Source: a bacterium
GTDB lineage: Bacteria; Patescibacteriota; Minisyncoccia; Phycocordibacterales; VMGT01
Direction: 5' to 3'
NCBI GenBank assembly: GCA_030697645.1
Contig: JAUYPI010000004.1
Span: forward strand, 1,141 to 65,140
DNA length: 64,000 nt
The position numbers and the translations under genes were made by a program. Under the pieces are notes generated by a model that worked only from the letters and a program-made list of their open reading frames with translations, was not told where the DNA came from and ran no database searches. Positions 1,062-22,315 of this stretch are shown here, in pieces; the first letter of the stretch is position 1, and the number at the start of each line of letters is the position of its first letter.

Positions 1062-1180
1062 GTTACGAAATCCGAACTGGACATTTGACCATTGACATTT
1101 GACTTCGAACGACTGTCGCAGTCGTCAAAGGTCAAATGTTACATGTCAAATGTCATGATTCTGATTTCGAGCTTCGTACT
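1062..1180. repeat. modular long palindromic intergenic element (ACATTTGACC...GGTCAAATGT core)
   Basis: Inverted arms acatttgaccattgacatttgac / gtcaaaggtcaaatgttacatgtcaaatgtcatg; related copies at 10278-10330 and 26655-26830. Confidence 0.6.
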
Positions 1181-1202
1181 TGTGTTGCATCGGATATTGA
1201 AC

Positions 1203-3701
1203 ATGATGAACCACAGAACGCGTATTTTTTTGCGTGCGGGGTCACCCGTATTCCTCCTCTTTTTTGCGTTGTCCGTTGGCGCGCAGAATCCCTTTGACGC
1301 GCTGCAATTTCCGATCGCCGGGCTTGGCGACTGCGCCTCGGTTGAGGGATGCAAGCTCTATTGTGATGAGCCGGAGAACGCTCGCGCCTGCAGTGAGTGG
1401 GCGCGGGCGAATGGTTTTGGATCTGGCGGTCGTCGGGAGGACGGTGATCAAGAGCGCAGTGGCGAGGCAGGAGGGGATGAAGAACGTATCGAACACGCAC
1501 GAGAGACGCTCGAGCGGACGACTGGTCCCGGCGGCTGCAGCAGCCCCGAGGAGTGCGATGTGTATTGTTCAGAAGAGGCGCACCACGATGAGTGCCGTGC
1601 ATTTGCGCGCGAGCACGGTTTTGATACGCACGAGGAGGAACGGATCGGGCCTGGCGGCTGCCATTCCGAAGATGAGTGTCAGTCGTACTGTCGTAACCCT
1701 GAACACACGAGAGAGTGCGTTGCATTTGGCCTTAAAAACGGCAACTTGAGCCCGGAGGAGGCGGCGCGAATACTTTCACAGATTGAACGCGCGCATACGA
1801 TTGGTGCTGAAGCGCGAAATCGCGCTCGAGAGGCAGGCGAGCGCGTGCAAGGCGAAGTGGGCGAGCGTATCCGCGGCAAGATTGAGCGGTTTGATGAGAG
1901 ACGTGGGCGCGGCCCGCGCGGCCCTCGGATCGAGGTGCGCGAGCCGAAGATTGACGAGGAGAAGGCGCGGCAAATCCTCGAGACCGAAGGGGGACCCGGC
2001 GGCTGCAGCACGTTTGATGCGTGCGAGCAATTTTGTAATGCTCCCGAGAACGGCGAGACGTGCATGCAATTTGCGCTCGAGCATGATCTCATCGCGGGCG
2101 ACGAGGCCGCGCGGATGCGGCGGCTCATGGATTCAACAGGCCCCGGGGGATGTCGCGGAAGGGCATGCGAGCAGTATTGTGAAGCGCCAGGCCACGAGCT
2201 TGAGTGTATTGAGCACGCGGAGGGACTCGGTTTGATTGATCCCACGGAGGCAGAGCGCGTTCGTGGCTTCATGCGCCGCGGCGAAGAGCGCGGGCTCGGC
2301 TGCCGCGGCCGCGAGTGCGAGCGCTATTGCGAAGACCCGGCGCATCGCGACCAGTGCTTCGAGGCGTTTAAGGATCTCATCCCCGAGGAGGAGCGGGCGC
2401 ACATTGAAAAGTTCAAAGCAATTGAAGCACGCGTCGAGTCAGCGGGTGGACCCGGCGGGTGCAGAGCAGAGGAAGAATGCCATCAGTATTGCTCCGACTC
2501 CGCGCATTTTGACGAGTGTGCCGCGTTTGCCGTCGAGGCGGGGCTCTTCTCTCCCGAGGATGCGGAAAAGATGCTGAAGCAATTTATTAATGTCGAGAAT
2601 TTTCGAGGTGGTGGGCCGGAGGGTGTCACGGCCCCGCCGGGATTTGAGGGTTTCGGCGAGCTCGGCGAGCCACCGCCGTTTGAGCATTTTGAAGATTTTG
2701 AACTGCCGGAGGGCGTGCCCCCGGAAGCACGGGAGCAGTTCAAGGCGCAGTTTGAGCAGGGGTTTCAAGGTGAATACCGGCAGCGGTTTGAAGAAGAGTT
2801 CCGGGCGCGTGCCGGACGCTTTGGGGAGTTTCGGCAACAGTTTGGCGGGGAAGGCGGCGAGCACGGGCAGTTTCCCGGTGGATTCGGAGCACCGCAGGGT
2901 GGAATGCCTCCGGGTGGTTTCGGCGGGGGTTCTGGCGAGGGCGGTTTTCAAGGATTTCCGCAGCAGGGAGGTGAGACGAGCGTGCAACGGACAAGCGGCG
3001 GCATCTCGCACATCAGTCTGAAGACAAACGACTCCGGTCTCTTCACGCTTCGCATCGAGGACTCGGACGGTATCGCGAGCTTTGCGCTCGATCCCGCCGA
3101 GGGCTCACGCTACGGCGGGGATGTGCCGAACTGCCCGCGTCGGCATGAATCAACCACCGTGCGCCTCAGCGGCTCGTTCCCGTACACGCTTACTTACACC
3201 GACTGCGCGGGGAACACCACTGAACGCACGCTCTCGCAGAACGAAGCGTACGGCACTCCAACTGCGCCGCCCCAGGGATCGTTGCCGGGAGCGGGCACTG
3301 TACCAGTCCAGCCCCCGGGAGTTGGGGGAATTCCGCAAGGGTTTGACCCGCGTTCGGTCGGCCTCCCCGAAGGCTTCCAGTTCGACGGGAGCAACATCCC
3401 GCCGGAGTTCCTCACAGACGAACTCCGCGCGCAGATTGAAGAGATGCGACGCCGTGAGACCGAGAACCAATACCACGAGCAGTACCAACAACAATCTGAT
3501 CAACAGTATCAGCAGCAGTATAATCAGCAGTACCAACAACAATACGACCAGCAGCAACAAAATTTCACACCGCCGGAATATCAGTACCCCCCACCCGAGG
3601 GCACCGAGCAGCACATAGACTCCACAGCCCCAACCGGCTTTTTCCTCTCCCGCATGATCGCGAACGCCGCGCGGGCGTTCCTGGAGTTGTTGGGAAGGTA
3701 G
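1203..3701 (+). CDS. secreted cysteine-rich repeat protein (7 tandem 4-Cys modules) with Gly/Phe-rich and Gln/Tyr-rich low-complexity tail
   Basis: Start moved to internal ATG 1203 after the palindromic element; signal-peptide-like N-terminus; repeats GPGGC-x5-C-x3-C-x8-C...; C-terminal QYQQQYNQQYQQQY. Confidence 0.6.
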   Translation: MMNHRTRIFLRAGSPVFLLFFALSVGAQNPFDALQFPIAGLGDCASVEGCKLYCDEPENARACSEWARANGFGSGGRREDGDQERSGEAGGDEERIEHARETLERTTGPGGCSSPEECDVYCSEEAHHDECRAFAREHGFDTHEEERIGPGGCHSEDECQSYCRNPEHTRECVAFGLKNGNLSPEEAARILSQIERAHTIGAEARNRAREAGERVQGEVGERIRGKIERFDERRGRGPRGPRIEVREPKIDEEKARQILETEGGPGGCSTFDACEQFCNAPENGETCMQFALEHDLIAGDEAARMRRLMDSTGPGGCRGRACEQYCEAPGHELECIEHAEGLGLIDPTEAERVRGFMRRGEERGLGCRGRECERYCEDPAHRDQCFEAFKDLIPEEERAHIEKFKAIEARVESAGGPGGCRAEEECHQYCSDSAHFDECAAFAVEAGLFSPEDAEKMLKQFINVENFRGGGPEGVTAPPGFEGFGELGEPPPFEHFEDFELPEGVPPEAREQFKAQFEQGFQGEYRQRFEEEFRARAGRFGEFRQQFGGEGGEHGQFPGGFGAPQGGMPPGGFGGGSGEGGFQGFPQQGGETSVQRTSGGISHISLKTNDSGLFTLRIEDSDGIASFALDPAEGSRYGGDVPNCPRRHESTTVRLSGSFPYTLTYTDCAGNTTERTLSQNEAYGTPTAPPQGSLPGAGTVPVQPPGVGGIPQGFDPRSVGLPEGFQFDGSNIPPEFLTDELRAQIEEMRRRETENQYHEQYQQQSDQQYQQQYNQQYQQQYDQQQQNFTPPEYQYPPPEGTEQHIDSTAPTGFFLSRMIANAARAFLELLGR

Positions 3702-10954: not shown

Positions 10955-12571
10955 TCACTTTTTTTGTGGCATATACTGGCGCACTTGCTCGTATAGCGTC
11001 TGAACTCCTGTGTCCTGCGGTATCCGCTCGCGCAGAGCCGCAACGATTTTTAGTGCGCCGGCCGTGTCACCATGCGAGAGCAGCAGCGCTGCCAGGTTGC
11101 GGTACGCGTAATGAAACAACGGGTCCACGGAAATGGCCTGTCTGTATAGGCCAGCCGCTTCTTGGTCGCGCCCGCGATCGCGAATGAGATTTCCCAGGTT
11201 GTGGTATGGTGCCGGTTGAGACGGATCGGCTTCCATTGCCCGTCGTAGATAGTATTCGGTTGCTTTTTCGTCGCCGCGCGCGGCGTAGATGTTGGCGAGG
11301 TTATTCAGTACGCGGGCATTGTCAGGTACGTATGAGATGATCTGAAGATAGAACTGCTCAGGGCTCCCCCAGAGGATCGTGCGCCTCACGGTTTGCACAT
11401 TAAAGAATCCGACGTAGGCCACGCCGAGCGCACACACAAGGTACGCGAGGGCGCGCCTGCGGACGTATAGCCAGTCATAGAGACGGATGCCGTACACGGC
11501 GACGATCGCAGCGAAACCGAGGAGTGACAGGTAGAGCCAGTGTTCGTATATGAGCGCATTGATGGGCGCGATGATGCCAGACGATGGCACGAGAGGCAGA
11601 AGGAACATCGCCGCCCCGAAGAACCACAGCCGCCTGCCACGGAGCGAGTCCCGCCAGATCAACGCGGCGAGTGAGAGGAGCAGCGCCGAGCCGCCTGCCA
11701 CCGACCAGTACCACGGCGTAGTCAGCACCGGGATAGTTCGTTCCATGTGCAGATCAAGCGGGACGATTGTTAATCGTAGATAGGTCCAGAGCGCCTGGAG
11801 GAACGTCCACGTGCGAACCGTTATATGCTCGGTGTATACGTTGGCGTACTGATACCAATTGAGCGTGTTTTGGAAATCGAGGATGGTGAGCCGCAGGAGC
11901 GTGTAGGTCGCGGCAATGGCGACGAACGGCCACGTCGCCTTAAGTGCTTTCCCGAAAGCTCGCGAGAGAGGTTCAGCCCGGTACAGAGAGGCTAGCAACA
12001 CGACGACCATATAGCCCGGCAATAACACCGCTGTCTCGCGCGAGAGCGTGGCGAGCACGGCACAGGGCAGTGCCCAGTAGCGAAAACGATCGGTACGCAG
12101 CCACAGGAGAATGGCAGACAGCATAAAGAAAACCGAGAGCGGGTCGCCTCTGCCAGCAATGTAGGCGATGGCCTCGGTTTGGAGTGGGTGCACGAGCCAC
12201 AGGAGAGCGGCGAGGGCGGCTTGCCGTCTGTTTTTCAAGAGGGCGTCGAGTAGCAGGAAGATCAGGACGGCATTGGCGATGTGCAGGCCGTTTGAGACAA
12301 GGTGGTACCCCCAGGGTGTTCGGCCGCCGAGCGCCCAGTTGATCGCAAAGGAGAGCATGAGCACCGGACGGTAGTAGTTCGACCGTGCGCCGACTCCAGC
12401 AAGCACATCGTGGCTGAATAGGAACTTCGCATGAGACCAGGAAAGTTCATGTACGGCCGGATTGTTCACGATCCAGTCGTCATCATCCCAGAATAGCGGG
12501 TTGTTCATGGTGGGCGCGTACAGTGCTGTCCCAACGAGGATGAGAATGAGGATGATGTGCCAGCGCTGCAT
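10955..12571 (-). CDS. PMT/TMTC-like membrane glycosyltransferase (GT39-like) with C-terminal TPR repeats
   Basis: Multi-TM N-terminal domain with DDDDW loop motif and YYRPV, followed by TPR-like repeats (LANIYAARGD..., YHNLGNLIRDRGRDQEA...); start at MQRWHII. Confidence 0.6.
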   Translation of the reverse strand: MQRWHIILILILVGTALYAPTMNNPLFWDDDDWIVNNPAVHELSWSHAKFLFSHDVLAGVGARSNYYRPVLMLSFAINWALGGRTPWGYHLVSNGLHIANAVLIFLLLDALLKNRRQAALAALLWLVHPLQTEAIAYIAGRGDPLSVFFMLSAILLWLRTDRFRYWALPCAVLATLSRETAVLLPGYMVVVLLASLYRAEPLSRAFGKALKATWPFVAIAATYTLLRLTILDFQNTLNWYQYANVYTEHITVRTWTFLQALWTYLRLTIVPLDLHMERTIPVLTTPWYWSVAGGSALLLSLAALIWRDSLRGRRLWFFGAAMFLLPLVPSSGIIAPINALIYEHWLYLSLLGFAAIVAVYGIRLYDWLYVRRRALAYLVCALGVAYVGFFNVQTVRRTILWGSPEQFYLQIISYVPDNARVLNNLANIYAARGDEKATEYYLRRAMEADPSQPAPYHNLGNLIRDRGRDQEAAGLYRQAISVDPLFHYAYRNLAALLLSHGDTAGALKIVAALRERIPQDTGVQTLYEQVRQYMPQKK

Positions 12572-12703
12572 ATTGATACCAGTGTACGTTCTCCTACGCC
12601 GCAAGAAAACTCCCCCTCGTAGCGTAGGAGTTTTCTTGCGGGTAGTTTGCAAATATGGCCTTCCGCGCTCCCGTTTCGCGTTTGCGCGTGATAGTATTAT
12701 TGC

Positions 12704-13099
12704 ATGAGCGAATTGCTTCTTGTGCTCCCTTCATATCTTACCTGGCACTATTCGCGCTCTCCTCGGGAGTATGCTTACCTGTGGGCGCGGATGCTCTGGT
12801 TTGTCGTGCATGTATTCTCGATGCCGTTTCTTCTCGCGACGCTCTTTTCGCCGTGGCGGCGGCTCGATGAAAAGTATCCGCGACAGCTCGATCTTGGCGC
12901 GTGGGGCGAAGTGCTGGTCGTGAATCTTCTCATGCGCCTCGTCGGCTTTGTGGTGCGTATGGCCGTCTTTACGTTCGGCGTGCTCGCGCTCGTTTTTGTT
13001 TTGCTCGGCGGCGCCGTCGGTTTTATCGTCTGGCTCGCTGCGCCAGCCTTGGTGCCGGTGTTTGCTGTTATCGGGACATGGATGCTTGTTGTGGGATAA
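12704..13099 (+). CDS. hypothetical membrane protein
   Basis: 131 aa, 3-4 predicted TM helices; no family recognised. Confidence 0.4.
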   Translation: MSELLLVLPSYLTWHYSRSPREYAYLWARMLWFVVHVFSMPFLLATLFSPWRRLDEKYPRQLDLGAWGEVLVVNLLMRLVGFVVRMAVFTFGVLALVFVLLGGAVGFIVWLAAPALVPVFAVIGTWMLVVG

Positions 13100-13147
13100 T
13101 CCATTAGAGTTCGACATCCTGAAGCTTTCCATCATCTGCGTGCGACG

Positions 13148-13215
13148 AATTTCCAATTTCCAAGCAAGTTCCAATTTCCAAATTTTCAAATCTAAAACAC
13201 GACAGACCGCGGCGT
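13148..13215. repeat. partial modular palindromic element (ttccaatttccaa arrays + aaaacacgac core)
   Basis: Half-element of the 7-mer-array family immediately upstream of the Clp-like gene. Confidence 0.45.
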
Positions 13216-13241
13216 TACTTTTTAATCCGCGTTCGACTTTC

Positions 13242-15818
13242 ATGCTCCCTACACATCTCGCCCTCGCCATTCGTTCTTTAGTCCCGGTGCTCCGCACTGA
13301 GCGTGTGATTTCGCACGCGCGGCGAAGAGCAGTACGTCATTTTTCTGTTGCGATTTTTTGCGTTGCGCTGGTGCTTGTCGGTGTCGGAATCCTGCTCGCG
13401 ACACTTCGGGTGCGGTTTCCTTCCATGGTTCCTGCGCTTGGAGCACGTCAGGTGTTTTTTTTAGTTTATGCCGGAGCGCTGCCTCGTCTTATCGGCCTTG
13501 GCCTCATCGCGGCCGCGCTCTCGCTCACGCTTGTGATGCTCGAGGCGTTTTACTACTCCCATTATTTTCGCGCGCGCGGAGCACTCGGCGCTACAAGCGA
13601 CGCCAAGGGCGCAGGTGATGAGGTGACGGCAGAACCACGGATCACGTTCGAGGCCGCCGAGTCGCTTTATGATGTGTACGCGCGCGGAGAGCTCCTCGCG
13701 CGCTCGTTCCTCGCCTCGCGCCACGGCACCGAGGTATTAAGGCGCCTTGAGCTCGCGAGCGAAAATATCGCTGCGCTCGCCGCGGCGGCTGGCACGAAAG
13801 ACGCTGCTCTATCGTCTGAGAGCACGCCCGAGGAGGATACGAGCGCTGTGCCGCAAGAATTCACGCTGCGCTCCGTTGCCGAACAGTTTGTCTGGGCTGA
13901 CGAGGGCGTTCGCATCGGGCTCCTCTCGCACGAAATTACGAACGAGCTTTTTCTCGGCGCTGCGGCGTGGGTCGCGGAGCGCCGAGAGCGAGCGCACGAG
14001 CGGGAGCGGTGGTGGTCGCTTGAGCGGCTCAAGGCGGTGGGCGTTGTCGGTGACGTATGGTCTTATGGCGGCGCGTACCGTCTGCGCCGGTTTGCAAAGT
14101 CGATTTCGCACGCAGTAATTAGTGACCTCACGTCGTATGGCACGGCGGAAGCGCACGCGCTCGAGAGCGTCCTCTCAAGGACGAGTGAGGCGAATGCGCT
14201 TCTCGTCGGCGACGATACAATCGGGATCGATGTGATCCTCTCCCGCCTTGCTGCGCGTATCGCCTCAGGCGAGGTGGCGGAGGCGCTGCGGCATAGCGAA
14301 TTCTTTTCACTTGATCTTGCAGCGCTCCTTGCCGCGACGGGATCAAAGGCGGCCTTTGAAGGCGAGTGCGTGCGCGTTTTTGAGGATGCTGTCGCTGCAG
14401 GTAACATTACACTTGTCATCCCCTCGCTCCCACAGGCGCTCGTGAGCATGCAGAAGCTCGGTGTGGATTTTCTTGAGCTTATTGATCCGTATCTTCGCGG
14501 GAGCAGCATTCATGTCGTCGCGACCGCGCATCGCGGCGCGTTCCACAAAAGCATGGGAGCGGAGCAGCGTCTCGCCGAGCGTTTTGAGGAGGTTGAGATT
14601 GAGCCTGCGGACTCGAGCGTACTCGCGTCGCTCTTGCTTGCCCGCGCCGAGGAGCTTGAGCGGCGTCGTGGCGTCTTCTTCTCATTTCCGACGATTTTTG
14701 CCACTGCGGAGAGTGCGCGGCAGTATTTCCCCTATGGCTCGCCTCTCGACAACGCGTTTGACCTCCTCGATGAGCTTGCGGCACGCCCCGTTAGAAGCAT
14801 CGAGGGTGCTTCTAACGGGGCACGCGCGGCAGGCGAGCGCGAGAGCCGCCTCATCCGCCGCGCCGACCTCGACGCGCTCGTTAAAGAGAAGACCGGCATT
14901 CCTGTGGGCGAGATGGGAGCTCGCGAGCGGGAGCGGCTCCTCTCGCTCGAGAAGCTGCTCGGCCGCCGCGTTCTGGGACAGCCTGAGGCTCTGCGCGCCG
15001 TTGCCGAGGCTCTGCGTCGCGCACGAGCAGGGCTTACGAAGGGCGAGAAGCCCATGGGGTCATTCCTCTTCCTTGGCCCCACCGGAGTCGGGAAGACCGA
15101 GACATCGAAGGCGCTCGCGGCTGCACTCTTTGAAGACGAAAAGCGCCTCTCGCGCCTCGACATGTCCGAGTTTAATACCGCAGATGCGGTGGAACGTCTG
15201 ATCGGCTCACCCGACGGCGCAGAGTCAGGGGCCCTCGCGACGATCCTCCGCGATCAGCCCTATGGGGTGCTTCTCCTCGATGAGTTTGAGAAAATGCATC
15301 CGAACGCGCTCAATATTTTTCTCTCAGTGCTCGACGAGGGCTTTTTTACCGACGGCGCGGGGAGGAAGGTTTCGGCGCAAAACGTGATCATAATCGCGAC
15401 ATCGAACGCAGGGAGTGATTTTATTTTTGAGGCAGTCGAACGTGGAGAGGATCCATCCACACGCACGGATGAGCTCGTAAGTAAACTCATTGAGCAGAGG
15501 ATCTTCAAACCCGAACTTCTGAACCGCTTCGACGGCGTCATCGTCTTCCGCCCGCTCGGCCCCGAGGAGCTCCGCGGCATCGCGCGGATTCTTCTTGCGG
15601 GTCTCGCGCGCGAGCTTACCGAGAAAGGCGTGACTCTTGAGATCACAGAAGAAATCGTCGCGTTCCTCGCAGAGAAAGGTTTTGACCCTAAATTCGGTGC
15701 CCGCCCCATGCGCCGCGCGCTTCAAGAGCACATTGAGGAACCCATCGCCCGCAAGCTAATCGCCGGAGAGCTCCGTCCAGGCACCACGCTTCTTCTGACA
15801 CCGGAGACGCTCCGGTGA
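13242..15818 (+). CDS. membrane-anchored ClpC/ClpB-family AAA+ ATPase with degenerate first nucleotide-binding domain
   Basis: N-terminal ~100 aa hydrophobic (3 TM) instead of a Clp N-domain; D1 aligns to ClpB NBD1 (SGEVAEAL vs NGEVPEGL) but Walker A is GDDTIGID and Walker B is VIPSL; D2 intact (GPTGVGKTE, LLLDEFEKMHP, GARPMRRAL); no IGF/LGF ClpP loop seen. Confidence 0.75.
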   Translation: MLPTHLALAIRSLVPVLRTERVISHARRRAVRHFSVAIFCVALVLVGVGILLATLRVRFPSMVPALGARQVFFLVYAGALPRLIGLGLIAAALSLTLVMLEAFYYSHYFRARGALGATSDAKGAGDEVTAEPRITFEAAESLYDVYARGELLARSFLASRHGTEVLRRLELASENIAALAAAAGTKDAALSSESTPEEDTSAVPQEFTLRSVAEQFVWADEGVRIGLLSHEITNELFLGAAAWVAERRERAHERERWWSLERLKAVGVVGDVWSYGGAYRLRRFAKSISHAVISDLTSYGTAEAHALESVLSRTSEANALLVGDDTIGIDVILSRLAARIASGEVAEALRHSEFFSLDLAALLAATGSKAAFEGECVRVFEDAVAAGNITLVIPSLPQALVSMQKLGVDFLELIDPYLRGSSIHVVATAHRGAFHKSMGAEQRLAERFEEVEIEPADSSVLASLLLARAEELERRRGVFFSFPTIFATAESARQYFPYGSPLDNAFDLLDELAARPVRSIEGASNGARAAGERESRLIRRADLDALVKEKTGIPVGEMGARERERLLSLEKLLGRRVLGQPEALRAVAEALRRARAGLTKGEKPMGSFLFLGPTGVGKTETSKALAAALFEDEKRLSRLDMSEFNTADAVERLIGSPDGAESGALATILRDQPYGVLLLDEFEKMHPNALNIFLSVLDEGFFTDGAGRKVSAQNVIIIATSNAGSDFIFEAVERGEDPSTRTDELVSKLIEQRIFKPELLNRFDGVIVFRPLGPEELRGIARILLAGLARELTEKGVTLEITEEIVAFLAEKGFDPKFGARPMRRALQEHIEEPIARKLIAGELRPGTTLLLTPETLR

Positions 15819-15919
15819 CAGTAAATTTTGAAGCAACAGCTTTTTTTTAGCACGCATCCACCCCTCGCGGGGTGGGCGCTCACATTTTTTCAATGGCTTA
15901 TGACGCCTACAGCGAGAGA

Positions 15920-16342
15920 TTAGACTCTAAGCGGCTTATCGGAGAAATGCGTGCGGTGCTTTGAAGAGAAGTACGTCTCAAGTGTCTCCATAAACAAGTG
16001 TCTACCCAAGAGAGGCGGCACTTCATTGCGATCAATGAATCCAACAGGGACCGTCCTCTCGAAGTCGCCGAGCTGCGCATCTATCTTCGGCAAGAAGTAC
16101 ACTTTTTCAGTGCCGCCAATGCCCGACGTGTAGAAAATTTTACAGTCATGCTCAACGTTTACTCCCAGATGTTCCGCCATATACCGCGGGAGCAGCGTAT
16201 AGTCTGCTCCGGAATCTACGATCATCCACACCTCACGCCACAGATCGGCATTTCGTGCTCGAAAAAAGACCTGCGCAACAGGTCTCCATACGTCGCCGAG
16301 AACAGGCGAGTGCGATTTCTCAAACGGAAACTCTACAGTCAT
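15920..16342 (-). CDS. retropepsin-like aspartic protease domain protein
   Basis: 140 aa; hallmark VDSGAD (D-S/T-G-A) active-site motif plus downstream GIGG flap-like motif. Confidence 0.6.
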   Translation of the reverse strand: MTVEFPFEKSHSPVLGDVWRPVAQVFFRARNADLWREVWMIVDSGADYTLLPRYMAEHLGVNVEHDCKIFYTSGIGGTEKVYFLPKIDAQLGDFERTVPVGFIDRNEVPPLLGRHLFMETLETYFSSKHRTHFSDKPLRV

Positions 16343-16560
16343 AAGATGAGCGTGTCGGCATCGGGAATATACGTTACCGCTGCAGTTTCATGTGGATATT
16401 TTTTGTCAGCATCGCGCAGAATCTTTGCAGCACCGTCCCCCGTTTTCGCGGTCAGTATCTTGTTCGCCACGACGATAACGTGCTTGCCTCTGTAGCGCGG
16501 ACTACTCAAGACTTTGTGCATTATTCGGGCATGTGCGCTTTTTGTATTTTTTCTTCTCAT
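16339..16560 (-). CDS. hypothetical small protein (translationally coupled to the aspartic protease gene)
   Basis: 73-aa ORF overlapping the downstream gene by 4 nt (ATGA). Confidence 0.35.
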   Translation of the reverse strand: MRRKNTKSAHARIMHKVLSSPRYRGKHVIVVANKILTAKTGDGAAKILRDADKKYPHETAAVTYIPDADTLIL

Positions 16561-16825: not shown

Positions 16826-17662
16826 ATGATCAATAACTACATCGCGACGAAAGACATCGTTCTCTATAGCAGCGCGGTTAGGTCGCTGCGGCGCTTCTTT
16901 CTTAACAAAAATTTTGTTGAAGTGCACACACAGGATCGTTTGAGCATCCTTGCCGCGTGCGAGGATCCGACTACGGTCGCCACCTTTGAGTATGCAGGCG
17001 AGCGCTGGCCACTGCCGCAAACAGGCCAGATGTGGCTCGAGTATGAGCTTTTGAAAAACCCGGCGCTGCCAGGCGTTTTTTGTGTGAGTACGAGCTATCG
17101 AGCCGAGAAGAACCCCGTGCCGGGCAGGCACGAGATCATCTTCCCTATGTTTGAGTTTGAATCTCGAGGTGGTATTGACGATCTCCGAGAGCTTGAGGTT
17201 GAGCTCTGCGAGCACCTCGGGTTCGGCTTGCGAGAGAGCTTCGTTCATCAATCATACGAGGCCGCTACAGCGCACTACGGCACGGACGATATCACGAGCA
17301 GGGAAGAGCTTCGCATTGCGGACGATTTCGGGCCGGTGTTTTTCCTTGGGCAGTTTCCGGTCCGTACCTCGCCGTTCTGGAACATGCGTAAAGACGGCGA
17401 CTACGCCCGCAAGATAGACGTTATTCTTCACGGTATGGAGACGATAGGTTCGGCAGAGCGGAGTTCTGATTCAGCGGAGATGCGTGAGCAGTTTTACGCC
17501 ATAAGCGGCGGGCGGTACGCGGGGTTGCTTCATGAAAAATTCGGCCGCGAGCGCGTGGAGCGCGAATTTGATGGCTTTCTGTCATTTAATTTCTTCCCTC
17601 GCTTCGGCGGCGGCATCGGCATGACCCGGCTTATTCGTGCACTGAAGATGCAAGAGCGCTAA
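16826..17662 (+). CDS. class II aminoacyl-tRNA synthetase-like catalytic-core protein (AsnA/AsnRS-paralog type)
   Basis: 278 aa, no anticodon-binding domain; class II motifs FVEVHTQ (motif 1-like), SYRAE (motif 2-like), GGGIGMTRL (motif 3, cf. AsnA GGGIGQSRL). Confidence 0.5.
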   Translation: MINNYIATKDIVLYSSAVRSLRRFFLNKNFVEVHTQDRLSILAACEDPTTVATFEYAGERWPLPQTGQMWLEYELLKNPALPGVFCVSTSYRAEKNPVPGRHEIIFPMFEFESRGGIDDLRELEVELCEHLGFGLRESFVHQSYEAATAHYGTDDITSREELRIADDFGPVFFLGQFPVRTSPFWNMRKDGDYARKIDVILHGMETIGSAERSSDSAEMREQFYAISGGRYAGLLHEKFGRERVEREFDGFLSFNFFPRFGGGIGMTRLIRALKMQER

Positions 17663-19943: not shown

Positions 19944-20103
19944 AAATTTCCAAATTCCAAAAAACAAGCTCCAAACAAATCACAATACTCAAAATCCAAT
20001 CTCCAAACACGACGTGCGTGTTTGAGATTTGGTGCATTGGAATTTGAAATTTGTTTGGAACTTGTTGGTTGGAAATTGGAGCTTATTTGGAACTTGGAAA
20101 TTC
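19944..20103. repeat. modular palindromic element (ttccaaa/tttggaa arrays around ccaaacacgacgtgcgtgtttgag)
   Basis: Large inverted structure ending 5 nt before the start codon of the next gene. Confidence 0.6.
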
Positions 20104-20107
20104 GATT

Positions 20108-22315
20108 ATGCTACTCAACAAAACCCTCCGTTTGATAGCGCTCGCCGGAATTTTCCTCCTGCCGCTCATTCCGATCTACGTTGCGCGGAGTATGTTTTTT
20201 CCGTTCATCACCGGGAAAAATTTTGCGTTTCGTATCATCGTCGAAATTGTGTTTGCCGCATGGCTCCTGCTCTGCGTCCGCGACCGCGCGTATCGTCCAC
20301 GACGCTCGACCATTCTCTCTGTGCTCGCGGTTCTCCTCGGTATCATTCTCATTACCGACTTTACCGGCGTCAATCTCTTCCAGAGCCTCTGGAGCAACTT
20401 TGAGCGCATGGAGGGTCTTTTTACGCTCCTCCACCTCGGCGCCTACTTTCTCGTCGCGGGATCGCTCCTCACAACGGAAAAACTTTGGAAACGCTTCTGG
20501 CACGTCTCGCTTTTCGTCAGCGCCTATCTCGGGTTCTACGGTCTGCTCCAGCTTGCAGGCGTGAAGGAGATCAATCAGGGCGGCGCGCGGCTTGACGCGA
20601 CACTCGGCAACGCCACCTATTTTGCAATCTACATGGTCTTTCACGCATTTATCGCCGCCTTCTATTCTCTGCGTCAGAGCAGCGGCAAACTTCTGAAAGG
20701 GCTCTACGGGCTCTTAATCGCGCTCCAGCTCTATACGCTCTATCATACGGCCACTCGTGGCGCACTTCTCGGGTTCCTCGGCGGTGCGCTCCTCGCGACA
20801 GTGTTAATCGCGATTTTTGGGCGGGAGCACCGCGTGCTGCGGCGCGCTTCGCTCGGTGTACTCGCTGGCCTGCTCATTCTCATCGGCGCGTTTTTTGCCC
20901 TGCGGAATAGCGACTTCGTGCGCCAGAGCGAAGTGCTCGGGCGTTTCGCCTCGCTCTCGCTCTCCGAGGGCCGGGTGCGCTTCTATGTGTGGAACATGGG
21001 ACTTCAGGGCTTCAAGGAACGGCCGCTCCTCGGCTGGGGGCAGGGCAATTTCGATGTGGTGTTCAATAAATACTACGATCCGCGGATGTATACGCAGGAG
21101 CCGTGGTTCGACCGCGCGCATGACATCGTCTTTGACTGGCTGATCACCGCCGGCGTCTTCGGCCTCCTTGGCTACTTTGCCCTTTTTGCCGCAACGCTCA
21201 CGCTCCTCTGGAGAGACCGGGCCGGTGTATTCTCCGTCGTGGATAAATCACTCCTCACCGGCCTCCTCGCCGCCTATCTGTTCCACAACATTTTCGTCTT
21301 CGATAATATCACGAGCTACCTGCTTTTCTTTAGCGTGCTTGCGTTCATCCACTCGCGGGAGAGTAGCAATGCTCGCCCGCTGTTTGCCGAGCGCGATCAA
21401 GCGCGGCTCGCTCCGCGCGGTGGCAGCGCCGGAGTTCTTCCTGCGGACCGTATCGCGATCCCCCTCGTTCTGATTGGACTCGTTGTTGTGCTCTATGCGC
21501 TGAATATCAAGGGCATCAACGCCTCACGTCTTCTCATACAGGCGATTTCTCCGCAGGAGAAGGGCGTCACCGAGAATCTCGCGCTCTTCCGCCGCGCGAT
21601 CGCCGCAAGCCCGATCGGCCGGATGGAAGCGCGCGAGCAGCTCGTCCAATTCGCGCTCGAGGCAGCAGGGGCGGAGAAGATACCGCCGGAGCTTAAGGAG
21701 GAGATCGCACGCACCGCAGAGCAAGAGATGCTCGCGATGCTCGAGACGATACCGCGCTCCGCGCGCCACCGCTTTTTCCTCGGCGTGTTTTACCGCCGCT
21801 TGGGCCGTCACGAGGATGCCGTGAAGATGCTTACCGAGGCGCTCGAACTCTCGGAGCACAAGCAGCAGCTCCGGTTCGAGCTCGGCCTCACGCACCTCGA
21901 TGCAAGCGAGTTTGACAAGGCGCTTGCGGTGCTGAAGACCGCCTACGAGGATGCGCCGGAGTACTCGGAGGCGCTTATGCTCTACGGGCTCACGGCAATC
22001 TATAGCGGAGAGCTCGAGCTCGCCGACGAGGTTTTCACTAAACGGTTCGGTTCGCCGATCCTCGATGACAATCGCGTGCTCAAGGCCTATTTTGACACGG
22101 GCAATCACGATCGAGTCGTCGCGATCTGGCAGAAGCGCGTCGAGCAGGATCCGGAGAACGCGCAGCTCCACGCCTCGCTTGGCGTATCATACGCCCAAAT
22201 CGGCGACCGTCAGGCTGCAATCGCCGAGATCGAGCATGCGATCAAGCTGCGGCCGGATCAAAAAGACAGGGGTGAGGAGCTCATCCGCCAAATCCGCTCC
22301 GGCAAGGTGCCGTAA
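20108..22315 (+). CDS. O-antigen ligase (Wzy_C)-like polytopic membrane protein with C-terminal TPR domain
   Basis: ~12 TM helices with a conserved loop (HTATRGALLGF), then TPR-like repeats (RFFLGVFYRRLGRHEDAVKM..., ASLGVSYAQIGDRQAAI...). Confidence 0.6.
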   Translation: MLLNKTLRLIALAGIFLLPLIPIYVARSMFFPFITGKNFAFRIIVEIVFAAWLLLCVRDRAYRPRRSTILSVLAVLLGIILITDFTGVNLFQSLWSNFERMEGLFTLLHLGAYFLVAGSLLTTEKLWKRFWHVSLFVSAYLGFYGLLQLAGVKEINQGGARLDATLGNATYFAIYMVFHAFIAAFYSLRQSSGKLLKGLYGLLIALQLYTLYHTATRGALLGFLGGALLATVLIAIFGREHRVLRRASLGVLAGLLILIGAFFALRNSDFVRQSEVLGRFASLSLSEGRVRFYVWNMGLQGFKERPLLGWGQGNFDVVFNKYYDPRMYTQEPWFDRAHDIVFDWLITAGVFGLLGYFALFAATLTLLWRDRAGVFSVVDKSLLTGLLAAYLFHNIFVFDNITSYLLFFSVLAFIHSRESSNARPLFAERDQARLAPRGGSAGVLPADRIAIPLVLIGLVVVLYALNIKGINASRLLIQAISPQEKGVTENLALFRRAIAASPIGRMEAREQLVQFALEAAGAEKIPPELKEEIARTAEQEMLAMLETIPRSARHRFFLGVFYRRLGRHEDAVKMLTEALELSEHKQQLRFELGLTHLDASEFDKALAVLKTAYEDAPEYSEALMLYGLTAIYSGELELADEVFTKRFGSPILDDNRVLKAYFDTGNHDRVVAIWQKRVEQDPENAQLHASLGVSYAQIGDRQAAIAEIEHAIKLRPDQKDRGEELIRQIRSGKVP

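What the first reader, a model, noticed from the sequence alone, without database searches (positions are those of the whole stretch)
13242..16560. Membrane-anchored ClpC/ClpB-family ATPase with a dead D1 ring, convergent with a retropepsin-like protease
The N-terminal ~100 aa form 3 TM helices in place of the Clp N-domain. D1 aligns residue-for-residue to ClpB NBD1 but has lost Walker A (GDDTIGID for GEPGVGKT) and Walker B (VIPSL for IDELH). D2 keeps Walker A/B and the arginine finger. I see no IGF/LGF ClpP-docking loop. A pseudo-ATPase D1 on a membrane tether is unusual for Clp/Hsp100 proteins. The convergent gene pair at 15920-16560 encodes a retropepsin-like aspartic protease (VDSGAD) plus a coupled small protein. 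One could speculate these act as a ClpP-independent membrane protein-quality-control or processing module, but they are not co-transcribed.
Basis: partly seen in the sequence, partly recalled or inferred. Interest (0 to 1): 0.7.

Follow-up and report, generated by a model that had tools for sequence, protein, structure and literature searches.

The report
Membrane-anchored Clp-like ATPase with small partner
This gene encodes a membrane-anchored relative of the ClpB/ClpC protein-unfolding machines whose first ATPase ring is dead. It belongs to a large, undescribed family found across the Patescibacteria (CPR bacteria), and its constant neighbour is a small membrane protein encoded just upstream, not the nearby retropepsin-like protease.

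Summary
The ORF at 13242-15818 (+) is real and encodes 858 aa. D1 has lost Walker A and B (GDDTIGID, VIPSL). D2 keeps every catalytic motif. There is no ClpP-docking loop. The N-terminus is hydrophobic and translated.

Three points were wrong or missed:
- There are two TM helices, not three.
- A diverged Clp N-domain fold is still present behind the anchor, so it was not replaced.
- Both pore-loop tyrosines and the M-domain are absent.

The protein is not a one-off. At least 169 50%-identity cluster representatives share the architecture, and all 25 genome hits are Patescibacteria. D1 is degenerate family-wide (canonical P-loop in 2 of 118) yet under strong purifying selection (dN/dS 0.10).

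The conserved partner is a ~130-aa membrane protein encoded directly upstream (window 12704-13099). It was present in every related locus with readable upstream DNA except L001. It often sits inside a SerS, FtsQ-like, small protein, ATPase, Dus gene order.

The retropepsin/DUF5678 pair accompanies the ATPase only in the window's closest relative and looks like an unrelated neighbour.

Published Tn-seq data for a probable Saccharibacteria ortholog pair show that both genes are dispensable, with a mild late fitness cost.

The likely role is a ClpP-independent, membrane-tethered remodelling ATPase. Its substrate is unknown.

The parts
12704..13099 (+). Small membrane protein (131 aa), the conserved partner gene. 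It has a conserved N-terminal region (WHY..., FS.P.LL.TLFSPWRRL.E.Y, VN.LMRLVG) followed by a C-terminal TM hairpin (aa ~85-131). It has no Pfam, NCBIfam or PADLOC hit.
   Evidence: It lies directly upstream on the same strand in 22 of 22 genome loci with upstream DNA and in L005, L006 and L007. It is 47% identical over 76 aa to the L005 neighbour. At least 227 clusters of 125-135 aa exist. Three of three loci chosen through the small protein have the ATPase 1-4 nt downstream.
13100..13241 (+). 142-nt spacer between the partner gene and the ATPase. It is unusually long for the family, where the two genes abut or overlap. It holds AATTTCCAATTTCCAA-type direct repeats at 13148-13189. A weak sigma-70-like site lies at 13073-13100.
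13242..15818 (+). Membrane-anchored Clp/Hsp100-like ATPase, 858 aa (identical to MDZ4284954.1, 'AAA family ATPase').
   Evidence: AlphaFold model with pLDDT 91 and pTM 0.88. Foldseek top hits are ClpC, ClpB and ClpA.
13242..13340 (+). N-terminal cytoplasmic segment (aa 1-33). It carries 7 Lys/Arg and a conserved P..L.LE....RR motif. It is not a TM helix.
13341..13550 (+). TM hairpin: TM1 aa 34-56, a short variable outer loop, and TM2 aa 80-103.
   Evidence: Hydropathy. AlphaFold helices 25-58 and 68-110. Family-wide, 107 of 115 and 114 of 118 sequences pass the hydropathy threshold.
13638..14006 (+). Diverged Clp N-domain fold (aa ~133-255), invisible to Pfam.
14001..14069 (+). Family-specific motif RERWWSLERLKAVGVVGDVWSYG (family consensus ERWWSRDxLxRIPGIGxxWSYG), located between the N-domain and D1.
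   Evidence: W258, L263 and G276 are nearly invariant.
14139..14786 (+). D1, a degenerate AAA+ module (aa ~300-515). P-loop remnant GDDTIGID (14208-14231). Walker B remnant TLVIPSL (14409-14429). The pore-loop Tyr is lost (GSKAAFEGE). There is no M-domain insertion.
   Evidence: dN/dS is 0.097 against L001.
14919..15791 (+). D2, a catalytically intact AAA_2 module plus the D2-small domain (aa 560-850). Walker A 15075-15098, Walker B 15270-15293, sensor 1 15396-15407, Arg finger 15516-15533, sensor 2 15696-15716. The pore loop is shortened by 4 residues and lacks any aromatic residue (GSPDGAESGAL, 15204-15236). There is no ClpP-docking loop.
15920..16342 (-). Retropepsin-like aspartic protease (140 aa, VDSGAD). 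It is a neighbour, not part of the conserved system.
   Evidence: Pfam Asp_protease_2. PADLOC candidate PDC-M08B at E 2e-7. Found only beside the window copy and L001. dS ~1.0 against L001, the same age as the ATPase.
16339..16560 (-). DUF5678 protein (73 aa by longest ORF; NCBI aa). It is translationally coupled (ATGA overlap) to the retropepsin gene. It is a neighbour, not part of the conserved system.

Best explanation
The gene encodes a member of a Patescibacteria-wide family of membrane-integral Clp/Hsp100 ATPases.

Shown:
- The architecture is a short basic cytoplasmic N-terminus, a two-helix TM hairpin, a flexible linker, a diverged Clp N-domain, a family-specific RWWS...WSYG motif, a D1 AAA+ module without working nucleotide-site motifs, and a fully equipped D2 (AAA_2 plus D2-small).
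- It has no M-domain and no ClpP-docking loop.
- It is encoded immediately downstream of a ~130-aa membrane protein that accompanies it throughout the phylum.

Inferred:
- With the N-terminus inside and two TM helices, the whole AAA+ body is cytoplasmic and hangs under the membrane, with its N-domain/D1 face towards the bilayer.
- D1 serves as a non-catalytic assembly or scaffold ring, as do the inactive rings of NSF and Pex1/Pex6. D2 is the only motor.
- The small membrane protein is an obligate partner, acting as a membrane adaptor or receptor.
- The machine works without ClpP and remodels or extracts membrane or envelope-assembly proteins. The frequent FtsQ-like, small protein, ATPase gene order hints at cell-division or envelope substrates.

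In the window's own clade the D2 pore loop has lost its aromatic residue. Canonical processive threading is therefore doubtful for this particular protein.

The retropepsin/DUF5678 pair downstream is an independent neighbour.
For: Architecture:
- Pfam, NCBIfam and PDB sequence matches.
- AlphaFold model with pLDDT 91. Foldseek gives ClpC/ClpB/ClpA at E 1e-40.
- Two TM helices and a positive N-terminus.

Family:
- 169 representatives at E<1e-30 have the same length and layout.
- All 25 genome hits are Patescibacteria, spanning Saccharibacteria and Paceibacterota.

D1 is dead family-wide but constrained:
- A canonical P-loop occurs in 2 of 118 sequences and Walker B DE in 2 of 118. The Arg finger is degenerate.
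- dN/dS is 0.097 for D1 against 0.075 for D2.
- D2 motifs are invariant.

Partner:
- The upstream small gene is present in 22 of 22 testable genome loci, in L005-L007 and in the window.
- The reverse test succeeded in 3 of 3 loci.

Synteny: an FtsQ-like gene lies upstream in 19 of 23 loci. An Amidase_3 gene lies there in close relatives.

Experiment from the literature (PMC10633639, Table S1/S2): in Southlakia epibionticum the pair SEML1_0701 (127 aa) and SEML1_0700 (860 aa; AAA_2 and D2-small, no Clp_N hit) share the same Tn-seq calls (NE, NE, GD). The same genome also has a canonical ClpC and ClpP.
Against: - No substrate, no oligomer and no physical contact with the small protein has been shown. 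All three are inferred from gene order and from analogy.
- The pore-loop aromatic residue, essential for threading in ClpB, is absent from D1 in every family member. In D2 it is absent from 47% of members, including this one. This argues against a universally conserved threading mechanism.
- The FtsQ link may be plain conserved gene order. Unrelated housekeeping genes (SerS, Dus, DnaX, DprA) are conserved in the same block, and the window itself lacks the FtsQ-like gene upstream.
- In the window the partner gene is separated by 142 nt and a possible promoter, so co-transcription here is not certain.
- Membership of SEML1_0700 in the family is inferred from its domain layout and its neighbour, not from its sequence.
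- L001 (the 70% relative) shows no small gene upstream, though that stretch contains a scaffold gap.
Confidence: 0.6

Rival explanations
1. Nucleotide-switch or scaffold rather than unfoldase. The D2 ring hydrolyses ATP to assemble, disassemble or gate a membrane complex built with the small protein, without threading polypeptides. Torsin, with its membrane cofactors LAP1/LULL1, is the analogy.
For: Both pore-1 loops lack aromatic residues in this protein. The D2 loop is shortened by 4 residues relative to ClpB. At the aromatic column the family shows F in 56, Y in 7, a gap in 23 and other residues in 32 of 118 sequences, so the residue is not under strict constraint. The partner is an obligate-looking small membrane protein. 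Tn-seq shows only a mild fitness cost.
Against: About half of the family keeps an aromatic residue at the D2 pore loop. The protein keeps its own arginine finger, unlike torsin. A Clp N-domain, which is normally a substrate or adaptor docking site, is retained.
Confidence: 0.25
2. The ATPase and the convergent retropepsin-like protease (with its DUF5678 partner) form a ClpP-independent membrane protein quality-control or processing unit.
For: The genes are adjacent in the window and in the 70%-identical relative L001. The ATPase lacks a ClpP-docking loop.
Against: The pair is absent next to the ATPase in the 27 other family loci examined at that point (L002, L005-L007, L008-L032), and no such gene is called in three further loci. 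Transcription is convergent. dS of the pair equals that of the ATPase (1.0-1.3), so adjacency in two close relatives is simple shared ancestry. The retropepsin matches a candidate defence-island gene, PDC-M08B. A second DUF5678 gene and toxin-antitoxin genes lie nearby in L001.
Confidence: 0.04
3. Export or insertion motor. The hexamer pushes unfolded proteins towards or through a membrane pore formed by the TM hairpins and the small protein, as HSP101 does in the Plasmodium PTEX translocon.
Against: The anchor is N-terminal, so the N-domain/D1 entry face, not the D2 exit face, is next to the membrane. The known Clp threading direction (D1 to D2) would move substrate away from the bilayer. The outer loop is short and variable (median 10 aa). 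The pore-loop aromatics are missing.
Confidence: 0.07
4. A decaying or mis-annotated gene. Either the hydrophobic N-terminus is not translated, or this divergent copy is losing function.
For: The window's clade is the most degenerate in the family: no P-loop Lys, no pore aromatic, and lost operon spacing. The 88% relative in L002 is split into two ORFs.
Against: dN/dS is 0.165 overall, 0.075 in D2, 0.097 in D1 and 0.45 in the TM region. The N-terminal motif and both TM helices are conserved family-wide. The ORF is intact in three independent assemblies.
Confidence: 0.03

Closest known systems
ClpB / Hsp104 disaggregases (TIGR03346; PDB 1qvr, 6qs6)
   Same: It has the Clp N-domain fold, two stacked AAA+ modules, and a D2 of the AAA_2 type with the D2-small domain. 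D2 is 45-48% identical to ClpB. It has no ClpP-docking loop.
   Different: It has an N-terminal TM hairpin and no coiled-coil M-domain, so no DnaK coupling site. D1 Walker A, Walker B and Arg finger are lost, as are both pore-loop tyrosines. It scores 416 bits against the 1232-bit family cut-off.
ClpA / ClpC unfoldases of the ClpP protease (TIGR02639; PDB 9a66, 7abr, 1ksf)
   Same: These are the best full-length structural matches, and the ClpA model aligns contiguously over aa 309-850. Like ClpA it has no long M-domain.
   Different: It has no IGF/IGL ClpP-binding loop, a dead D1 and a membrane anchor. A canonical ClpC plus ClpP coexist with the probable ortholog in Southlakia.
FtsH
   Same: FtsH is a bacterial AAA+ machine held under the membrane by two N-terminal TM helices. 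It is the obvious functional analogue for acting on membrane proteins (established knowledge; PMC7949044 for the anchor).
   Different: FtsH has a single classic-clade AAA module fused to a zinc protease, and a periplasmic domain between its TM helices. Here there is no protease domain, the layout is the Clp two-tier one, and the outer loop is short.
NSF, Pex1/Pex6 and other tandem AAA+ proteins with one inactive ring
   Same: One of two stacked rings has lost catalysis yet stays conserved, presumably as an oligomerisation scaffold. D1 dN/dS is 0.097. The comparison itself rests on established knowledge.
   Different: They belong to a different AAA+ clade. In NSF it is D2 that is inactive. None of them is membrane-integral.
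Torsin with LAP1/LULL1; Msp1/ATAD1; Skd3/CLPB; PfHSP101 in PTEX
   Same: Torsin is ClpB-D2-like, membrane-associated, has no aromatic pore loops and depends on membrane cofactors. Msp1 is an N-terminally anchored extractase. Skd3 runs on a single D2-type motor. HSP101 is an Hsp100 working at a membrane complex (established knowledge; PMC5425593, PMC7018516).
   Different: All are eukaryotic. Torsin lacks its own Arg finger, which is kept here. Msp1 and Skd3 have aromatic pore loops. HSP101 is not itself membrane-integral.
SEML1_0700 / SEML1_0701 of Southlakia epibionticum (PMC10633639, Tables S1/S2)
   Same: An 860-aa 'AAA family ATPase' with AAA_2 and D2-small and no Clp_N hit is preceded by an overlapping 127-aa hypothetical membrane protein. 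This is the same two-gene layout.
   Different: Only table entries are available. Both are called non-essential, with a growth defect at the last passage.

Membership tests
Clp/Hsp100 class I (ClpA/ClpB/ClpC) | Clp N-terminal domain | tested here: met
Clp/Hsp100 class I (ClpA/ClpB/ClpC) | D1 AAA+ module with functional Walker A, Walker B and Arg finger | tested here: not met
   The fold is present. The motifs are lost: GDDTIGID, VIPSL and a single R in ERF. Family-wide, 2 of 118 have a canonical P-loop and 2 of 118 have DE.
Clp/Hsp100 class I (ClpA/ClpB/ClpC) | D2 AAA_2 module with Walker A/B, sensor 1, Arg finger and sensor 2, plus the D2-small domain | tested here: met
   Pfam AAA_2 at 1.5e-40 and ClpB_D2-small at 4.7e-25. 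The motifs are invariant.
Clp/Hsp100 class I (ClpA/ClpB/ClpC) | Aromatic pore-1 loops (KYR in D1, GYVG in D2) | tested here: not met
   D1 reads SKAAFE. D2 reads GSPDGAESG, with a 4-residue deletion relative to ClpB.
ClpB (TIGR03346 equivalog) | Coiled-coil M-domain inserted in D1, and a score above the curated cut-off | tested here: not met
   416 bits against a cut-off of 1232. Only ~40 partly disordered residues lie between D1 and D2, and the model shows no coiled coil.
ClpA/ClpC/ClpX (ClpP partners) | IGF/IGL/LGF ClpP-docking loop in the last AAA+ module | tested here: not met
   The only [ILVM]G[FL] matches are at aa 84 (TM2) and aa 225 (N-domain). D2 aligns to ClpB without an insertion.
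Unnamed Patescibacteria family (TM-anchored Clp-like ATPase plus small membrane protein) | N-terminal two-helix TM hairpin preceded by a basic segment | tested here: met
Unnamed Patescibacteria family (TM-anchored Clp-like ATPase plus small membrane protein) | RWWS...WSYG motif between the N-domain and D1, with a degenerate D1 and an intact D2 | tested here: met
   The window has RERWWSLERLKAVGVVGDVWSYG. W258, L263 and G276 are nearly invariant.
Unnamed Patescibacteria family (TM-anchored Clp-like ATPase plus small membrane protein) | ~130-aa membrane protein gene directly upstream on the same strand | tested here: met
   Window 12704-13099, hmmsearch E 3e-54. The gap here is 142 nt, against 1-4 nt or an overlap elsewhere.
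Retropepsin-like aspartic proteases (Pfam Asp_protease_2, clan AA), for the neighbour gene 15920-16342 | Pfam score above the gathering threshold and a D-[ST]-G-A active-site motif | tested here: met
   32.0 bits against 24.3. The motif VDSGAD lies at aa 42-47. Dimerisation and activity were not tested.
FtsH | M41 zinc-protease domain after a single AAA module | tested here: not met
   There is no Peptidase_M41 hit, and the layout is the two-tier Clp one.

The most novel reading that the evidence does not exclude
The ATPase hexamer and the small membrane protein together form the first membrane-integral Hsp100 machine. It would be a Patescibacteria-specific device that pulls or remodels membrane or divisome/envelope proteins, as hinted by the FtsQ-like and amidase neighbours. 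It would use a single D2 motor on a dead D1 scaffold, independently of ClpP and DnaK.
Probability: 0.3. Interest if true: 0.8.

Novelty: new variant of a known kind. Interest (0 to 1): 0.6.

Why it matters
Hsp100/Clp machines are textbook soluble unfoldases. In bacteria, membrane-anchored AAA+ work has been assigned to FtsH. This family has a different combination of features:
- a Clp two-tier body welded to a TM hairpin;
- a family-wide dead but strongly conserved D1;
- no ClpP or DnaK coupling elements;
- a dedicated small membrane partner;
- conservation across a radiation that holds a large share of bacterial diversity.

It gives AAA+ specialists a natural 'single-motor on a scaffold ring' Hsp100 to study. 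It also gives CPR biologists a conserved two-gene module of unknown role. That module can already be manipulated genetically in Southlakia, where Tn-seq suggests a shared mild fitness phenotype.

It also shows that annotations such as 'ClpC' or 'AAA family ATPase' in CPR genomes hide a distinct family.

Tried and rejected
1. A word-indexed homolog search with the full protein and with an N-terminal family alignment returned almost only canonical ClpB. The family was found only by the exhaustive representative search with aa 1-545.
I replaced it with a hand-built degenerate DNA pattern for the RWWSRD...W.YG motif. That pattern samples only ~15% of the family.
4. A three-TM topology (N-terminus outside) was considered because P0002's first 19 residues are hydrophobic. 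I rejected it because that segment is polar in 115 of 116 relatives.
5. Recent horizontal transfer of the retropepsin pair was considered, because the pair is 89% identical to its L001 counterpart while the ATPase is only 70% identical. I rejected it because dS is the same for both, ~1.0-1.3.
6. The retropepsin has no tblastn match in the plasmid or phage collections.
7. PADLOC hits of the ATPase (DolB, PDC-M37B) cover D2 only and are generic.
8. The AFDB Foldseek library was not available.
9. Nine literature searches found no description of the family.
10. There is no correlation between keeping the D1 P-loop lysine and keeping the D2 pore aromatic (Fisher P 0.44).

Full report
**1. What is in the sequence**

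The + strand carries an open frame from 12948 to 15818. The first ATG, at 13242, gives an 858-aa protein. The upstream gene ends at 13099, so 13242 is the sensible start.

The protein is identical to GenBank MDZ4284954.1, 'MAG: AAA family ATPase [bacterium]'. It was assembled independently in an NCBI MAG and in a Logan assembly.

- Pfam sees only AAA_2 (aa 603-764, E 1.5e-40) and ClpB_D2-small (772-850, E 4.7e-25). It finds no Clp_N and no D1 AAA hit.
- The NCBIfam ClpB and ClpA equivalogs match far below their cut-offs: 416 bits against 1232, and 345 against 993. The ClpA model aligns contiguously over aa 309-850.

**2. D1 and D2**

Against solved ClpB (1qvr), aa 308-594 align colinearly to NBD1 (E ~1e-14). 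'vGDDTIGIDvi' lies on 'iGEPGVGKTai', and 'lvIPSLpq' lies on 'lfIDELht'. D2 aligns at E ~1e-90 with GPTGVGKT and LLLDEFEK intact.

Sensor 1 (ATSN), the arginine finger (LLNRFD) and sensor 2 (GARPMRR) are present. They are invariant or nearly invariant in 118 relatives.

Two further losses were not noticed:
- The D1 pore loop KYRGEFE reads SKAAFEGE.
- The D2 pore loop GAPPGYVGYEEGG is shortened by four residues to GSPDGAESG. It has no aromatic residue.

There is no [ILVM]G[FL] ClpP-docking loop in D2. The ~125-residue M-domain of ClpB has no counterpart. Only ~40 partly disordered residues join D1 to D2.

**3. The N-terminal third**

Hydropathy shows two hydrophobic segments, not three: aa 34-56 and 80-103. 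They are preceded by a segment with seven Lys/Arg.

In 118 relatives the first ~30 residues are polar. Only 1 of 116 reaches the TM threshold. TM1 passes in 107 of 115 and TM2 in 114 of 118. The outer loop is short and variable (median 10 residues).

An AlphaFold model built on a 118-sequence alignment is confident (pLDDT 91, pTM 0.88). It gives helices 25-58 and 68-110.

With the basic N-terminus inside and two spans, the AAA+ body is cytoplasmic. That is the only topology compatible with ATP use.

Between this domain and D1 lies a family-specific motif, RERWWSLERLKAVGVVGDVWSYG.

Translation of the N-terminus is supported by protein-level conservation in the 70% and 88% relatives and by dN/dS of 0.45.

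**4. It is a large family**

An exhaustive search of 1.84 billion cluster representatives with aa 1-545 found 169 proteins at E<1e-30. Nearly all are 780-860 aa and aligned from the N-terminus. Names, where present, point to Patescibacteria.

A degenerate DNA pattern for the RWWSRD...W.YG motif hit 25 species-representative genomes. All are Patescibacteria: Saccharibacteria, Paceibacterota/Parcubacteria, Taylorbacteria, Kaiserbacteria, Sungiibacteriota and Minisyncoccia.

| Feature, across 118 full-length members | Count |
|---|---|
| Canonical D1 P-loop | 2 |
| D1 P-loop lysine kept | 42 |
| D1 Walker B 'DE' | 2 |
| D1 pore tyrosine | 0 |
| D2 pore-loop aromatic (F or Y) | 63 |

The D1 arginine finger is also degenerate.

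The window's clade (window, P0002, P0003) is the most degenerate. It is nevertheless under purifying selection against L001:

| Region | dN/dS |
|---|---|
| Whole gene | 0.165 |
| D1 | 0.097 |
| D2 | 0.075 |

A dead ring that is as constrained as the live one argues for a structural role.

**5. The real partner**

A 131-aa membrane protein is encoded at 12704-13099. A homologous ~127-132-aa gene lies directly upstream of the ATPase, with gaps of 1-4 nt or an overlap, in the following:
- loci of relatives only 31-36% identical;
- 22 of 22 genome loci that include upstream DNA; the other three are cut at the locus edge;
- three of three long contigs chosen through the small protein instead.

The small-protein family has at least 227 clusters of uniform size and no Pfam model. 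It has a strongly conserved N-terminal part (WHYGRA, FFSIP.LL.TLFSPW.RL.E.Y, VN.LMRLVG) and a C-terminal TM hairpin.

In 19 of 23 loci with enough upstream sequence, the order is SerS, an FtsQ-like POTRA protein, the small protein, the ATPase, Dus and DnaX. This holds in both Saccharibacteria and Paceibacterota. Close relatives of the window organism have an Amidase_3 gene between the FtsQ-like gene and the small gene.

This hints at cell-division or envelope work. Unrelated housekeeping genes are conserved in the same block, however, so the hint is weak.

In the window the block is rearranged, and the two genes are 142 nt apart. The spacer carries AATTTCCAATTTCCAA repeats and is preceded by a weak promoter-like site.

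**6. The retropepsin pair**

The 140-aa ORF passes the Pfam Asp_protease_2 threshold and has VDSGAD. The 73-aa ORF passes DUF5678. Their start and stop overlap as ATGA.

BLAST of both proteins against all ORFs of the 32 loci held at that point finds them only in the window's duplicates (L003, L004) and in L001. In the three loci added later, no Asp_protease_2 or DUF5678 gene is called.

Their higher identity to L001 (89-95%, against 70% for the ATPase) reflects stronger constraint, not recent transfer. dS is 1.0-1.3 for all three genes.

The retropepsin matches the PADLOC candidate gene PDC-M08B (E 2e-7). L001 carries a second DUF5678 gene and Phd/ParE and HicA modules nearby. There is no match in the plasmid or phage collections.

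I read the pair as an independent accessory module that happens to sit next to the ATPase in this lineage.

**7. Experimental data from the literature**

Tables S1 and S2 of the Patescibacteria genetics paper (PMC10633639) list SEML1_0700 in Southlakia epibionticum. It is an 'AAA family ATPase' of 2583 nt with AAA_2 at 544-706, D2-small at 713-792, only weak AAA hits at 276-381 and no Clp_N.

SEML1_0701, a 384-nt hypothetical, overlaps its start.

| Gene | TRANSIT calls | Normalised reads over three time points |
|---|---|---|
| SEML1_0700 | NE, NE, GD | 4124 → 2517 → 1638 |
| SEML1_0701 | NE, NE, GD | 258 → 157 → 51 |

The same genome has a canonical ClpC (Clp_N x2, UVR) and ClpP, both called non-essential.

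I could not check the sequence, so membership is inferred from layout and neighbour. If correct, the pair is an extra, dispensable paralog system with a shared mild fitness cost. The paper does not discuss these genes. Nine literature searches found no description of the family.

**8. How it most likely works**

Shown: the architecture, the family, the partner linkage and the selection pattern.

Inferred:
- It forms a hexamer held under the membrane by twelve TM helices, with the N-domain/D1 face next to the bilayer.
- D1 is a non-catalytic assembly ring.
- D2 is the sole motor.
- The small protein is a membrane adaptor.
- There is no coupling to ClpP or DnaK.
- It acts on membrane or envelope-assembly proteins.

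The known D1-to-D2 direction of Clp threading would pull substrates out of the membrane. That favours extraction over export.

The poorly conserved D2 pore aromatic, and its absence here, keep a non-threading 'switch' mechanism open as a serious rival.

**9. Verdict**

The feature is a new variant of a known kind: a membrane-integral Hsp100 with a scaffold D1 and a dedicated small membrane partner, conserved across Patescibacteria and apparently undescribed.

Noticed in passing
window 13148-13189: Three overlapping direct repeats of AATTTCCAATTTCCAA type lie in the unusually long 142-nt spacer between the small-protein gene and the ATPase gene. A weak sigma-70-like site lies just upstream at 13073-13100. 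Contigs of close relatives (L033, L034) end within ~190 nt after the small gene, so this spacer may be hard to assemble.
   Followed up: partly
L002 209-2810: In the 88%-identical relative the ATPase gene is split into a 326-aa ORF and an overlapping 525-aa ORF. This is either a frameshift (assembly error) or a pseudogene.
   Followed up: partly
window 15795-15821: A 12-nt inverted repeat (CTGACACCGGAG / CTCCGGTGACAG, 3-nt loop) spans the ATPase stop codon. It could be a terminator hairpin shared by the convergent genes, but no T-run follows it.
   Followed up: no
window 16826-17662: A 278-aa protein consists only of a class II aminoacyl-tRNA synthetase catalytic core (Pfam tRNA-synt_2, E 7e-15). 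It has no anticodon-binding domain and falls far below all NCBIfam AspRS/AsnRS/LysRS/EpmA/AsnA cut-offs. It is probably an aaRS-like paralog of unknown role.
   Followed up: partly
window 1092-3701: An 869-aa ORF has no Pfam hit at E<=1e-5.
   Followed up: no
L001 4760-4945 and 9652-11635: The 70% relative's locus carries a second, solitary DUF5678 gene upstream of the ATPase, plus Phd/ParE and HicA toxin-antitoxin genes downstream of the retropepsin pair. It also has a run of N (a scaffold gap) in the ORF just upstream of the ATPase, where the small-protein gene would be expected.
   Followed up: partly
L033/L034 5232-5855: In close relatives of the window organism, an Amidase_3 (cell-wall amidase) gene sits between the FtsQ-like gene and the small-protein gene.
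   Followed up: no
window 10955-12652 (-) and 20051-22315 (+): Two large multi-pass membrane proteins have C-terminal TPR repeats. The second also has a Wzy_C/O-antigen-ligase domain. The first occupies the position where most relatives have the FtsQ-like gene.
   Followed up: no
window 15998-16495 (+): A 165-aa ORF lies antisense to the retropepsin and DUF5678 genes. It is almost certainly spurious, but it is the longest ORF a naive caller would pick there.
   Followed up: no
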